From a virus (taxonomy: Duplodnaviria > Heunggongvirae > Uroviricota > Caudoviricetes): a stretch of 19,800 nucleotides of DNA. Below the pieces are notes generated by a model. The model was not told the origin of the DNA. It made no database searches and saw only the letters and a program-made list of their open reading frames with translations. The stretch lies in IMG/VR virus record IMGVR_UViG_2711768043_000001; one strand, written 5' to 3'. This document shows, one piece after another, positions 10,383-11,156 of the stretch. How positions within the stretch are numbered: position 1 is the stretch's first letter; each line of letters begins with the position of its first letter. A program made the translations under genes and the position numbers.

Positions 10383-10738
10383 TGGCCCGTATCGGGGGAA
10401 CCTGTTATTTCAAAATTGACGGTCAGCAGCTATCGCTGACCGGCGGCATTGAGGTGCCCATGAACAGGACGGTCAATGATGACATCATCGGCCTGGACGG
10501 TTCAGTGGACCGCAAGGAAACTCACCGTGCGCCCTATGTCAAAGGGACCTTCAAGGTGCCGAAGAATTTTCCGGTGAGCAAAATCACCTCGTCTGATGAG
10601 ATGACCATCACTGCCGAGCTGGCGAACGGTCAGGTCTATGTACTGTCGTCTGCCTGGCTGCACGGCGAAGCGAACCATAATGCCGAAGAAGGCACGGTTG
10701 ATCTTGAGTTCCACGGTGAAGAAGGGGATTACCAGTAA
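10382..10738 (+). CDS. Tail tube protein (Mu gpM-like)
   Basis: 118-aa ORF coupled to the sheath by a TAATG overlap. Confidence 0.8.
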   Translation: MARIGGTCYFKIDGQQLSLTGGIEVPMNRTVNDDIIGLDGSVDRKETHRAPYVKGTFKVPKNFPVSKITSSDEMTITAELANGQVYVLSSAWLHGEANHNAEEGTVDLEFHGEEGDYQ

Positions 10739-11007
10739 TGAAAGAGCTTGAGTTAAAGAAACCGATTACTGCTCATGGCGAGACACTCTCCGTACTTGAG
10801 TTTGATGAGCCCACCGGGAAAGATGTCCGCGAGCTGGGGTATCCCTATCAGATGAATCAGGATGAGTCAGTCAGACTTCTGGCGCATGTGGTATCGAAAT
10901 ACATTGTGCGGCTGGCGAAAGTGCCGCAAAACTCTGTCGACCAGATGTCTCCGGCAGACCTGAATGCTGCGGCGTGGCTTGTGGCTGGTTTTTTCCTCCA
11001 GGCCTGA
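10738..11007 (+). CDS. Tail assembly chaperone, short form (G-like)
   Basis: 89-aa ORF between the tube and tape measure genes. It ends in the slippery run GGT TTT TTC. Confidence 0.75.
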   Translation: MKELELKKPITAHGETLSVLEFDEPTGKDVRELGYPYQMNQDESVRLLAHVVSKYIVRLAKVPQNSVDQMSPADLNAAAWLVAGFFLQA

Positions 11008-11156
11008 CGGCTGAATACCTCACTGATCGCTTCTTTGACTGCGCCAGTTACTGGCGCATTAATCCCTTCGAATTGCTGAATATGCCGATCAGTGAAATTC
11101 CCTTGCTGGTCAGTCAGGCAAACAGGATAGAGCAGGAGAAACGCACACATGGCTGA
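10738..11156 (+). CDS. Tail assembly chaperone, long form made by a programmed -1 ribosomal frameshift (GT-like)
   Basis: The downstream ORF 10974..11156 is in the -1 frame relative to 10738..11007 and has no plausible independent start. The heptamer T_TTT_TTC at 10989..10995 lies in the overlap. The predicted fusion reads ...AAWLVAGFF then PPGLTAEYLTDRFFDCASYWRINPFELLNMPISEIPLLVSQANRIEQEKRTHG. Confidence 0.65.
10989..10995 (+). promoter_or_regulatory. Slippery heptamer T_TTT_TTC for a -1 programmed frameshift
   Basis: X_XXY_YYZ pattern in the zero frame of the chaperone gene, in the overlap with the -1 frame ORF. Confidence 0.6.

What the first reader, a model, noticed from the sequence alone, without database searches (positions are those of the whole stretch)
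10738..11156. Programmed -1 frameshift in the tail assembly chaperone gene, with slippery heptamer T_TTT_TTC
Two ORFs between the tube and tape measure genes overlap, and the second is in the -1 frame. The heptamer T_TTT_TTC (10989..10995) lies in the overlap, just before the zero-frame stop at 11005..11007. This matches the conserved G/GT-type frameshift of long-tailed phages, here in a Mu-like tail module, and predicts a fusion protein of about 139 aa.
Basis: partly seen in the sequence, partly recalled or inferred. Interest (0 to 1): 0.45.

Follow-up and report, generated by a model that had tools for sequence, protein, structure and literature searches.

The report
Frameshift in phage tail chaperone gene
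A prophage tail-assembly gene contains a conserved slippery run (TTTTTTC) that should make a fraction of ribosomes slip back one base and produce a second, longer protein; this is a well-known phage trick (as in phage P2), correctly spotted here but missing from every public annotation examined.

Summary
ORF 10738-11007 (89 aa, Pfam Phage_TAC_7) lies between the tail tube and tape-measure genes of an SfV-like prophage. The -1 frame stays open to 11156, and T_TTT_TTC (10989-10995) is the gene's only in-frame slippery heptamer. The predicted fusion is 139 aa. In 92 loci examined (85 distinct contexts, chaperone identity down to about 32%; alpha-, beta- and gamma-proteobacteria, plus P2), a T_TTT_TTN heptamer sits at the homologous position. 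The preceding codon always ends in T although its amino acid varies. The first Phe codon is always TTT, and the T-run is 6 nt (rarely 7). Third-codon-position variation switches from frame 0 to frame -1 at the heptamer. Six of 13 close relatives have no start codon for the downstream ORF. The architecture matches experimentally established P2 E/E+E', not Mu gp41 (different family, -2 shift). No conserved stimulatory RNA structure was found. None of the 14 annotated records inspected joins the two ORFs; one calls the extension a separate hypothetical protein. One unexplained extra: an invariant 8-bp hairpin (11040-11058), 45 nt downstream, under nucleotide-level constraint in this clade. Overall: an ordinary, new member of a known kind.

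The parts
10738..11007 (+). Zero-frame tail assembly chaperone ORF ('G'/'E'-like), 89 aa. Its ATG overlaps the tube gene stop (TAATG).
   Evidence: ORF list and translation. Pfam Phage_TAC_7 E=3.6e-16, 59.4 bits, profile positions 2-78 ending at residue 86, the second Phe of the heptamer. Annotated 'phage tail assembly protein' in E. coli RefSeq.
10989..10995 (+). Slippery heptamer T_TTT_TTC (U_UUU_UUC): P-site codon UUU, A-site codon UUC. Both tRNA-Phe can re-pair on UUU UUU after a -1 slip.
   Evidence: Invariant in relatives at 71-73% nucleotide identity. Present in 80 of 80 GTDB species loci. X1 is always T although the preceding codon encodes G, S, R, N or P; the P-site codon is always TTT; the T-run is 6 nt in 80 and 7 nt in 5 of 85 contexts.
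10995..11156 (+). -1-frame extension ('T'/E'-like part): 53 sense codons plus TGA. It is translated only as the C-terminus of the 139-aa fusion (10738..10995 joined to 10995..11156).
   Evidence: Translation. Third-position variation moves to the -1 frame downstream of the heptamer (41 of 51 variable). Conserved as protein in diverged phages (alignments A5 and A6, motif A-x-[FY]-W-[RK]-x-[ND]-P). PHROG 32181 E=4e-40. Weak profile match to P2 E' (E=2.8e-4).
11005..11007 (+). Zero-frame stop codon (TGA) ending the short product.
   Evidence: Its distance from the heptamer varies between clades (9, 24, 27, 30, 33, 48 and 63 nt, with the off-by-one's printed values corrected). The heptamer, not the stop, is therefore the conserved landmark.
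10974..10976 (+). GTG in the -1 frame, used by some annotators as the start of a free-standing 60-aa 'hypothetical protein'. Judged not to be a real start.
   Evidence: No Shine-Dalgarno sequence upstream (context). The codon is CTG in 7 of 13 relatives, and 6 of 13 have no ATG/GTG/TTG in the open -1 frame up to 48 nt past the heptamer. Upstream of the heptamer the variation pattern is purely zero-frame (36 of 40).
11040..11058 (+). Invariant 8-bp hairpin UGCGCCAG-NUA-CUGGCGCA inside the extension, starting 45 nt after the heptamer. Role unknown; probably not a canonical frameshift stimulator.
   Evidence: Folding gives dG about -11.4 kcal/mol. The stem is invariant in 79 of 80 distinct sequences retrieved without using the stem as bait; the single variant keeps pairing as G.U. 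The 4 degenerate third-codon positions in the stem are 4 of only 8 invariant ones among 50 (P=5.5e-4 on the 13-sequence set). Absent at that position in other clades.
11134..11151 (+). Shine-Dalgarno (AGGAG, 11134-11138) and ATG (11149) of the tape-measure gene. The -1 ORF stop (11154-11156) overlaps it as ATGGCTGA.
   Evidence: Sequence. The -1 ORF ends within 10 nt of the tape-measure start in 78 of 80 loci, and at +7 in P2 exactly as here.
10382..10738 (+). Tail tube gene (context; upstream neighbour).
   Evidence: Pfam PF10618 Tail_tube, E=2.4e-33.
11149..12981 (+). Tape measure protein gene (context; downstream neighbour).
   Evidence: Pfam PF10145 PhageMin_Tail, E=6.2e-27. Annotated as tape measure in SfV, SfI and E. 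coli records.

Best explanation
This is a programmed -1 ribosomal frameshift site in the tail assembly chaperone gene of an SfV-like prophage (HK97-type head, Mu-type contractile tail). Most ribosomes translate 10738-11007 and terminate, producing an 89-aa chaperone. A minority slip back one nucleotide while the two tRNA-Phe occupy UUU (P site) and UUC (A site) at U_UUU_UUC (10989-10995). They re-pair on UUU UUU and continue in the -1 frame to 11156. The result is a 139-aa protein with the same N-terminus plus a 53-residue extension (junction ...AGFF-PPGLTAEY...). By analogy with lambda G/GT and P2 E/E+E', the shared domain is inferred to coat the tape-measure protein, and the extension is inferred to recruit the tube protein. 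The fixed, low ratio of long to short product would then be needed for tail assembly, with neither protein ending up in the virion. Shown here: the sequence anatomy, family membership, conservation and nucleotide-level selection of the heptamer, protein-coding selection on the -1 extension starting at the heptamer, and the lack of an independent start. Inferred: that the shift is ribosomal, its efficiency, and the functions of the two products.
For: (1) Anatomy is exact. (2) The protein is a Phage_TAC_7 chaperone between the tube and tape-measure genes, in a Mu-like tail module. (3) The heptamer T_TTT_TTN sits at the homologous position in 12 phage lineages including P2 and in 80 of 80 species-representative genomes. 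F85, encoded by the heptamer's first full codon (TTT), is one of 4 invariant columns in a 12-lineage alignment. (4) Selection acts on nucleotides, not just on amino acids. In 85 of 85 distinct contexts the codon before the heptamer ends in T although it encodes G, S, R, N or P, and the first Phe codon is always TTT. As an internal control, an A8 run at Lys-Lys in the neighbouring tape-measure gene varies freely in the same relatives. (5) Codon periodicity: zero-frame third positions vary upstream (76 of 83), -1-frame third positions vary downstream (41 of 51), and the switch falls at the heptamer. (6) The -1 frame is open for 40-49 codons and ends within 10 nt of the tape-measure start in 78 of 80 loci, while the +1 frame runs a median of 5 codons. 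(7) Six of 13 close relatives have no possible start codon for the downstream ORF. (8) The architecture is the same as P2 E/E+E', which RefSeq annotates as a joined CDS with a -1 translational frameshift at TTTTTTG and which the literature describes (PMC3091744). (9) U_UU.U_UU.C belongs to the H_HH.U_UU.Y class, which is among the most efficient -1 motifs measured in E. coli (PMC4066793).
Against: No protein-level evidence exists for this phage group. In a reporter, the bare heptamer gave only 0.12% frameshifting in E. coli without a stimulator (0.89% and 7.6% with IS911 and IS3 stimulators; PMC4066793 Table S3). I found no conserved stimulator: no consistent SD-like element upstream (31 of 85), no structure 5-9 nt downstream, and none in the Pseudomonas clade. 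The real efficiency, and what sets it, are therefore unknown. A one-U insertion by RNA polymerase on the T-run would yield exactly the same fusion protein, so sequence analysis alone cannot exclude it.
Confidence: 0.85

Rival explanations
1. Transcriptional slippage: RNA polymerase stutters on the T6 run and adds one extra U to a fraction of transcripts. Normal translation of those mRNAs then gives the same 139-aa fusion.
For: The site is a pure homopolymer, and the resulting protein would be identical (GGU UUU UUU CCU gives G-F-F-P). The bare heptamer is a weak ribosomal shifter in reporters (0.12%) and no ribosomal stimulator was found. A terminator-like stem precedes the run (10966-10985).
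Against: The run is only 6 nt in 80 of 85 contexts, 7 nt in the remaining five, and never longer. Slippage-based expression would favour longer runs. To my knowledge, appreciable slippage by bacterial RNA polymerase needs about 8-9 or more A/T. Sharma et al. invoke slippage to explain why U7/A7 runs are avoided. The upstream stem is not maintained in relatives: 73.6% of cells paired against 71.4% in shuffles, with 112 of 500 shuffles at least as high. The homologous P2 site is annotated and described as a translational frameshift.
Confidence: 0.09
2. Two independent genes: the downstream ORF starts at its own GTG (10974) and makes a free-standing 60-aa protein, as annotated in ON470584 and in about 1000 database contigs.
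For: A GTG exists in the -1 frame 15 nt upstream of the heptamer. One phage record and many E. coli records call this ORF. PHROG 32181 is evidently built from such calls.
Against: No Shine-Dalgarno sequence lies upstream. The codon is CTG in 7 of 13 relatives, and 6 of 13 have no ATG/GTG/TTG in the open -1 frame up to 48 nt past the heptamer, yet the extension is conserved as coding from the heptamer onward. Between the GTG and the heptamer the substitution pattern is zero-frame only.
Confidence: 0.03
3. No recoding: the downstream 141 nt is an untranslated spacer or a decayed gene fragment, and the heptamer is coincidental.
For: From this window alone, a heptamer somewhere in the overlap has about a 13% chance. 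Most annotation pipelines leave the stretch uncalled.
Against: There is a strong -1-frame codon periodicity. Protein-level conservation reaches about 20-30% identity across Proteobacteria, with an invariant Pro and a near-invariant Trp (A6). The -1 frame is open in 92 of 92 loci.
Confidence: 0.01

Closest known systems
Bacteriophage P2 E / E+E' (-1 frameshift at T_TTT_TTG in the FETUD tail operon; Christie et al. 2002, cited via PMC3091744 and the RefSeq NC_001895 annotation)
   Same: Both short products belong to the same Pfam family (PF10109: window 59 bits, P2 48 bits). In both, the domain match ends at the slippery codons (residues 86 and 85). Product sizes are similar (89/139 aa here, 91/142 aa in P2). 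The heptamer lies at the aligned ...VAGFF / ...VVGFL position. The extension is about 50 aa, and the -1 stop lies 7 nt past the tape-measure ATG in both. No stimulatory hairpin was found adjacent to the heptamer here, in line with its reported absence in P2.
   Different: Z is C here (A-site Phe UUC) and G in P2 (Leu UUG). The extension does not reach the Pfam P2 E' family PF06528 (0 of 57 relatives) and matches P2 E' only weakly by profile comparison (E=2.8e-4, probability 41%). The surrounding tail and baseplate genes are Mu-type, not P2-type. The fusion is experimentally supported for P2 and not for this group.
Phage lambda G / GT (-1 frameshift at G_GGA_AAG; Levin et al. 1993; Xu et al. 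2004, 2013, 2014; summarised in PMC5009743)
   Same: Same genomic position (between the major tail/tube gene and the tape-measure gene). Same logic of a short product plus a C-terminally extended frameshift product at a low fixed ratio.
   Different: Different slippery heptamer and tRNAs, no detectable sequence similarity, and a siphovirus rather than a myovirus tail. The functional roles (G binds the tape measure, T binds the tail tube subunit) are demonstrated for lambda and only inferred here.
Phage Mu gp41 (tail assembly chaperone; -2 frameshift according to Xu et al. 2004 as cited in PMC2628397 and PMC5009743)
   Same: Same position in a syntenic, homologous tail module (sheath L, tube M, chaperone, tape measure, N, P, gp45-48).
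   Different: Mu gp41 is 144 aa and belongs to PF23746 Gp41_Mu (119.5 bits). It only grazes PF10109 (24.7 bits against a cut-off of 25). It has no X_XXY_YYZ heptamer, and its extension lies in the +1/-2 frame. The window protein hit only PF10109 in a Pfam scan run up to E=10.
E. coli dnaX and IS3/IS911-type -1 frameshift signals
   Same: Tandem-slippage heptamer of the X_XXY_YYZ form; U_UU.U_UU.C is also used by some IS elements.
   Different: Those signals combine the heptamer with an upstream SD-like sequence and/or a hairpin or pseudoknot 5-9 nt downstream. Neither is conserved here.

Membership tests
G/GT-type tail assembly chaperone frameshift of long-tailed phages (Xu, Hendrix & Duda 2004) | Gene pair located between the major tail (tube) gene and the tape-measure gene | tested here: met
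   Tube gene at 10382-10738 (PF10618) and tape-measure gene at 11149-12981 (PF10145). Same order in all 14 annotated relatives.
G/GT-type tail assembly chaperone frameshift of long-tailed phages (Xu, Hendrix & Duda 2004) | Two overlapping reading frames, the second shifted, with no independent translation start | tested here: met
   The -1 frame is open 10866-11156. Six of 13 relatives lack any start codon, and the GTG at 10974 is not conserved.
G/GT-type tail assembly chaperone frameshift of long-tailed phages (Xu, Hendrix & Duda 2004) | Slippery sequence in the overlap, conserved among relatives | tested here: met
   T_TTT_TTN in 92 of 92 loci, with nucleotide-level selection.
G/GT-type tail assembly chaperone frameshift of long-tailed phages (Xu, Hendrix & Duda 2004) | The shifted-frame extension is under protein-coding selection | tested here: met
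   Periodicity switch at the heptamer. Extension alignment A6 has an invariant Pro and near-invariant L, A, W, A, R and I columns.
G/GT-type tail assembly chaperone frameshift of long-tailed phages (Xu, Hendrix & Duda 2004) | Both products are made in a fixed ratio, both are required for tail assembly, and neither is in the virion | not testable with these tools
   Needs protein detection and genetics; see next steps.
Pfam PF10109 Phage_TAC_7 (P2 gpE / FluMu gp41 / gp14-like chaperones) | Score above the curated gathering threshold | tested here: met
   59.4 bits against a cut-off of 25, covering profile positions 2-78 of 79.
Pfam PF06528 Phage_P2_GpE (the E' extension of P2-like phages) | The extension matches the family model | tested here: not met
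   No hit for the window's extension or for any of 57 distinct relatives at E up to 1. P2 E+E' itself scores 76 bits. A profile comparison to P2 E' is only suggestive (E=2.8e-4, probability 41%).
Mu gp41-type chaperone with -2 frameshift (PF23746 Gp41_Mu) | Gp41_Mu domain, with the extension in the +1/-2 frame | tested here: not met
   The window protein hits only PF10109 at E up to 10. Its +1 frame closes 2 codons after the stop. Mu gp41 scores 119.5 bits on PF23746 and has its extension in the +1 frame.
Stimulated bacterial -1 PRF signals (dnaX / IS3 type) | Conserved upstream SD-like element and/or a stable structure 5-9 nt downstream of the heptamer | tested here: not met
   An SD-like tetramer lies 6-17 nt upstream in only 31 of 85 contexts. 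Only a marginal 4-bp stem lies next to the heptamer. The Pseudomonas-clade consensus fold is -1.8 kcal/mol. No Rfam match.
Programmed transcriptional slippage sites | Long A/T homopolymer (typically 8-9 nt or more), with length rather than codon phase under selection | tested here: not met
   The T-run is 6 nt in 80 contexts, 7 nt in 5, and never longer. The length threshold itself comes from my own knowledge of the literature and was not verified here.

The most novel reading that the evidence does not exclude
The invariant 8-bp hairpin at 11040-11058 may be a functional RNA element specific to the SfV-like enterobacterial clade. It lies 45 nt downstream of the slippery site, inside the frameshift-only reading frame. 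It might set the G:GT ratio from an unusually long distance. Alternatively it might act as an mRNA processing or stabilising site that uncouples the abundant sheath-tube-chaperone message from the low-copy tape-measure message, or as a pause signal. This would address a puzzle: a heptamer that shifts at only about 0.1% on its own would have to deliver the percent-level ratios reported for lambda and P2.
Probability: 0.2. Interest if true: 0.5.

Novelty: new member of a known kind. Interest (0 to 1): 0.22.

Why it matters
For biology, little changes: conserved frameshifting in tail assembly chaperone genes has been textbook knowledge since 2004, and the P2 homologue is experimentally established. 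The practical value is in annotation. This prophage type matches 1,089 of 5,426 complete E. coli genomes. None of the 14 annotated records examined (phage RefSeq/GenBank records and one E. coli PGAP record) carries the joined CDS. The extension is either left uncalled or deposited as a 60-aa 'hypothetical protein' (about 1,000 contigs; PHROG 32181, 'unknown function'). A simple rule would fix these: a Phage_TAC_7 gene, followed by T_TTT_TTN at the end of the domain, followed by a -1 ORF running to the tape-measure start. The result also shows that a Mu-type tail module can carry a P2-type chaperone and recoding signal, whereas Mu itself uses a different chaperone family and a -2 shift. That is a small but clean example of mosaic replacement inside a conserved operon.

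Tried and rejected
(1) Canonical downstream stimulator: folding 10996-11075 gave only a marginal 4-bp stem next to the heptamer (z = -1.5), and the 201-nt fold had z = -1.4. Rejected.
(2) Long-range helix 11020-11026 / 11089-11095 flanking the hairpin: it looked promising on 13 sequences (89% of cells paired, 0 of 500 shuffles as high). In 73 colinear viral-contig sequences it breaks often, to 3-6 of 7 pairs. Rejected as a conserved element.
(3) Terminator-like stem 10966-10985 directly upstream of the T-run, as a possible promoter of transcriptional slippage: not maintained in relatives. Rejected.
(4) Family-wide stimulator in the Pseudomonas clade: consensus fold -1.8 kcal/mol. Rejected.
(5) Hairpin as a repeated operator: it occurs only once in the window. 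As an intrinsic terminator: not reported by the terminator scan.
(6) Searches that found nothing useful: Rfam, NCBIfam, PDB sequence search (spurious light-harvesting-complex hits only).
(7) The fused 139-aa sequence does exist once in public data, on a Logan contig from SRR30949442. That contig has T7 plus a second homopolymer insertion that truncates the tape-measure ORF, so it is a sequencing artefact and not evidence of a fused allele or a slipped transcript.
(8) The in-frame A8 run in the tape-measure gene (11559) as a second recoding site: not conserved. Rejected, but useful as a control.
(9) Primary papers Xu et al. 2004 and Christie et al. 2002 are not held. I therefore could not check whether SfV was already listed in Xu et al.'s survey. 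The SfI and SfIV genome papers contain no mention of a translational frameshift.
(10) The first genome-scan attempt with a 12-lineage alignment failed for lack of a conserved stretch. It was repeated with 5 sequences.
(11) Structure prediction was not attempted.
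Full report
OBSERVATION. ORF 10738..11007 encodes 89 aa. Its ATG overlaps the stop of the preceding gene (TAATG). The -1 frame is open from 10866 to 11156. TTTTTTC occupies 10989..10995 in the phase X_XXY_YYZ (GGT TTT TTC). The zero-frame stop TGA is at 11005..11007, three codons after the heptamer. A -1 slip at the heptamer gives a 139-aa protein with the junction ...LVAGFF-PPGLTAEY.... The -1 stop (11154-11156) overlaps the next gene's ATG (11149) as ATGGCTGA. This is the only in-frame X_XXY_YYZ heptamer in the gene. Within this window alone the coincidence is only moderately unlikely. In-frame heptamers occur at 0.30% per codon in the window's forward ORFs, giving P of about 0.13 for one anywhere in the 47-codon overlap and about 0.015 for one in the last five codons.

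CONTEXT. The window is the morphogenesis region of an SfV/SfI/SfII-like temperate phage. It is 98% identical to those phages over the query 10382-11400, and matches are found in 1,089 of 5,426 complete E. coli genomes. The head genes are of HK97 type: large terminase, portal, S78 protease and capsid. The tail is of Mu type: sheath 8886-10382, tube 10382-10738 (PF10618), the chaperone, tape measure 11149-12981 (PF10145), DNA_circ_N 13659-14993, then gp44/P, gp45, gp46, Baseplate_J and gp48 homologues. The 89-aa protein is a Phage_TAC_7 tail assembly chaperone (PF10109, 59.4 bits against a cut-off of 25). The domain match ends at residue 86, the second Phe encoded by the heptamer.

ANNOTATION STATUS. 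None of the 14 annotated records I inspected carries a joined CDS. They comprise SfV, an E. coli RefSeq chromosome, vB_EcoM-689R6, Pantoea AH07, Edwardsiella EPP-1, SfIV, ST64B, phiP27, BgVeeders33, Paraburkholderia IPK (which has no annotation at all), DVM-2008, PG1, YeP1 and a Haematospirillum replicon. Each annotated one leaves 84-148 nt unannotated between the chaperone stop and the tape-measure start. One record calls a free-standing GTG ORF there. That 60-aa 'hypothetical protein' is on record on about 998 contigs, and PHROG 32181, which the extension matches, is labelled 'unknown function'. The fused 139-aa sequence occurs once in public data, on a 1.26-kb Logan contig from SRR30949442. 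That contig has T7 at the site and a second single-base insertion in a C-run that truncates the tape-measure ORF. It is therefore a homopolymer sequencing artefact.

COMPARATIVE TESTS. (i) I analysed eleven lineages whose chaperone identity to the window falls as low as about 32%, plus P2. Hosts were Escherichia/Shigella, Pantoea, Edwardsiella, Salmonella, Yersinia, Burkholderia, Pseudomonas, Stutzerimonas and Haematospirillum. In all of them an in-frame T_TTT_TTN lies at the homologous ...GFF position. The -1 frame runs from there to between -3 and +10 nt of the tape-measure start, and the +1 frame does not reach it.
(ii) In 80 loci from different GTDB species, 80 of 80 have T_TTT_TT[C/T] at that position. 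The -1 extension is 40-49 codons and ends within 10 nt of the tape-measure start in 78 of 80. The +1 extension has a median of 5 codons.
(iii) The distance from the heptamer to the zero-frame stop varies between clades from 9 to 63 nt, so the heptamer is the conserved landmark and not the stop.
(iv) Selection acts at the nucleotide level. In 85 distinct contexts the codon before the heptamer encodes G, S, R, N or P but always ends in T. The first Phe codon is always TTT and never TTC. The T-run is 6 nt in 80 contexts and 7 nt in 5. As an internal control, the A8 run at Lys-Lys in the neighbouring tape-measure gene (11559) varies freely (AAGAAA, AAGAAG and so on) in the same relatives.
(v) On 13 enterobacterial sequences (75-99% chaperone identity; alignment A4), variation upstream of the heptamer sits at zero-frame third positions: 76 of 83 are variable, and 36 of 40 in the stretch where the -1 frame happens to be open. 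Downstream it sits at -1-frame third positions (41 of 51). The switch falls in the windows containing the heptamer.
(vi) The GTG at 10974 has no Shine-Dalgarno sequence and is CTG in 7 of 13 relatives. Six of 13 have no ATG/GTG/TTG in the open -1 frame up to 48 nt beyond the heptamer.
(vii) The extension is conserved as protein across clades, with the motif A-x-[FY]-W-[RK]-x-[ND]-P, an invariant Pro and a near-invariant Trp (alignments A5 and A6; tblastn).
Together these results exclude an untranslated spacer, a pseudogene and independent initiation. They show that translation enters the -1 frame at the T-run.

MECHANISM. The best-supported mechanism is tandem -1 ribosomal slippage on U_UUU_UUC, with tRNA-Phe in both the P and A sites. 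Sharma et al. (PMC4066793) place H_HH.U_UU.Y among the most efficient -1 motifs in E. coli. Their measured values for UUUUUUC are 0.12% without a stimulator, 0.89% with the IS911 stimulator and 7.6% with the IS3 pseudoknot. UUUUUUG, the P2 motif, gives 0.12%, 0.25% and 0.77%. I found no conserved stimulator. An SD-like tetramer 6-17 nt upstream occurs in only 31 of 85 contexts. Only a marginal stem lies next to the heptamer. There is no consensus structure in the Pseudomonas clade and no Rfam match. This agrees with the reported absence of hairpins in P2-like phages (PMC3091744). The actual efficiency here is therefore unknown. The main rival is transcriptional slippage, which would give an identical protein. 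The short, length-constrained T-run (6 nt, never more than 7) and the non-conservation of the upstream stem argue against it, but only an experiment can exclude it. I put ribosomal frameshifting at about 0.85 and transcriptional slippage at about 0.09.

COMPARISON WITH KNOWN SYSTEMS. The closest known case is P2 E/E+E'. RefSeq NC_001895 annotates a joined CDS with a -1 translational frameshift. My analysis shows the same layout: E is 91 aa, T_TTT_TTG lies at the aligned ...VVGFL position, the extension is about 50 aa, and the -1 stop is 7 nt past the tape-measure ATG, exactly as here. Both short products are PF10109 members, with the domain ending at the slippery codons. The extension, however, is not a member of the Pfam P2 E' family: PF06528 hits 0 of 57 relatives. 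It resembles P2 E' only weakly in profile comparison (E=2.8e-4, 44 columns, probability 41%). Mu itself differs although its tail module is syntenic. Its gp41 belongs to PF23746 (119.5 bits) and falls just below the PF10109 cut-off (24.7 against 25). It has no X_XXY_YYZ heptamer, and its extension is in the +1/-2 frame. This agrees with the literature statement that Mu uses a -2 shift (PMC2628397, PMC5009743). The functions assigned to the two products (the shared domain binding the tape measure, the extension recruiting the tube subunit, and the ratio being critical) rest on lambda work summarised in PMC5009743 and are inferred here.

AN UNEXPLAINED EXTRA. Forty-five nucleotides after the heptamer, inside the extension, lies an 8-bp GC-rich hairpin, UGCGCCAG-NUA-CUGGCGCA (11040-11058; dG about -11.4 kcal/mol). 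I retrieved 80 distinct sequences from viral contigs using only the heptamer context as bait; 33 of them are 84% identical or less over 440 nt. The stem is exact in 79, and the single variant keeps pairing as G.U. Of 50 degenerate third-codon positions in the extension, only 8 are invariant across 29 diverged sequences plus the window, and 4 of those are the stem's synonymous sites. On the 13-sequence set the hypergeometric P is 5.5e-4, computed post hoc. Because the stem never varies, covariation cannot be assessed. The hairpin is absent at this position in other clades, so it is not a family-wide feature. Its distance is far beyond the 5-9 nt spacing of canonical stimulators. The motif occurs once in the window and was not reported by the terminator scan. 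I regard it as a real nucleotide-level constraint of unknown function.

VERDICT. This is an ordinary, previously unannotated member of a well-known class of phage recoding sites. The interest is low for biology and modest for annotation. The conserved hairpin adds a small open question.

Noticed in passing
window 11040-11058 (+): An invariant 8-bp hairpin, UGCGCCAG-NUA-CUGGCGCA, lies inside the -1 extension and starts 45 nt after the heptamer. Its four synonymous stem sites are invariant across diverged enterobacterial relatives, while most other third positions vary. It is clade-specific and its function is unknown.
   Followed up: partly
window 13073-13603 (+): A 176-aa ORF with an N-terminal hydrophobic segment sits in a sharp low-GC island (34-40% against about 54%) between the tape-measure and DNA-circularisation genes. 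It has no Pfam or PADLOC hit, matches PHROG 5485 ('unknown function', E=3.8e-108), and has no nucleotide match in 50,697 phage records, so SfV, SfI and SfII lack it. It looks like a moron inserted in the tail operon.
   Followed up: partly
window 11559-11566 (+), inside the tape-measure gene: An in-frame A8 run (A_AAA_AAA at Leu-Lys-Lys) would be prone to slippage. It is not conserved: relatives have AAGAAA, AAGAAG or AAAAAG, and SfV has A7. It is therefore a lineage-specific accident, and it served as an internal control for the T6 heptamer.
   Followed up: yes
L298 (Logan contig SRR30949442_16559), positions 500-919: This is the only public occurrence of the exact 139-aa fused protein. The contig has T7 at the slippery site plus a second homopolymer insertion that truncates the tape-measure ORF. 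It is most simply read as sequencing error, not as a fused allele.
   Followed up: yes
window 10974-11156 (+); PHROG 32181; about 998 database contigs: The -1 extension is widely deposited as a free-standing 60-63-aa 'hypothetical protein' starting at a non-conserved GTG. The extension matches PHROG 32181 (63 positions, 'unknown function'), which is evidently built from such calls. This is a systematic annotation artefact of the missed frameshift.
   Followed up: yes
L096 (phage Mu NC_000929) 2553-3117, compared with the window: The syntenic Mu-type tail modules carry non-equivalent chaperones. Mu has a Gp41_Mu (PF23746) protein with a +1/-2-frame extension and no heptamer, whereas the SfV group has a P2-E-type PF10109 protein with a -1 heptamer. 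This suggests replacement of the chaperone cassette within a conserved operon.
   Followed up: partly
window 10735-10740 and 11149-11156: Gene junctions are tightly coupled. The tube stop and chaperone start overlap as TAATG, and the tape-measure start and -1 ORF stop overlap as ATGGCTGA. The latter arrangement (stop 7 nt past the ATG) is identical in P2 and in the enterobacterial clade.
   Followed up: partly
L113-L177 (Pseudomonas clade), 40-75 nt after the heptamer: The nucleotides encoding the conserved Y-D-L-A-W-F-W-K motif of the extension (TATGACCTGGCCTGGTTCTGGAAGGT) are also highly conserved at third positions in Pseudomonas prophages. This is the same protein position as the enterobacterial hairpin. 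It could reflect GC3 codon bias or a nucleotide-level constraint; the two were not separated.
   Followed up: no
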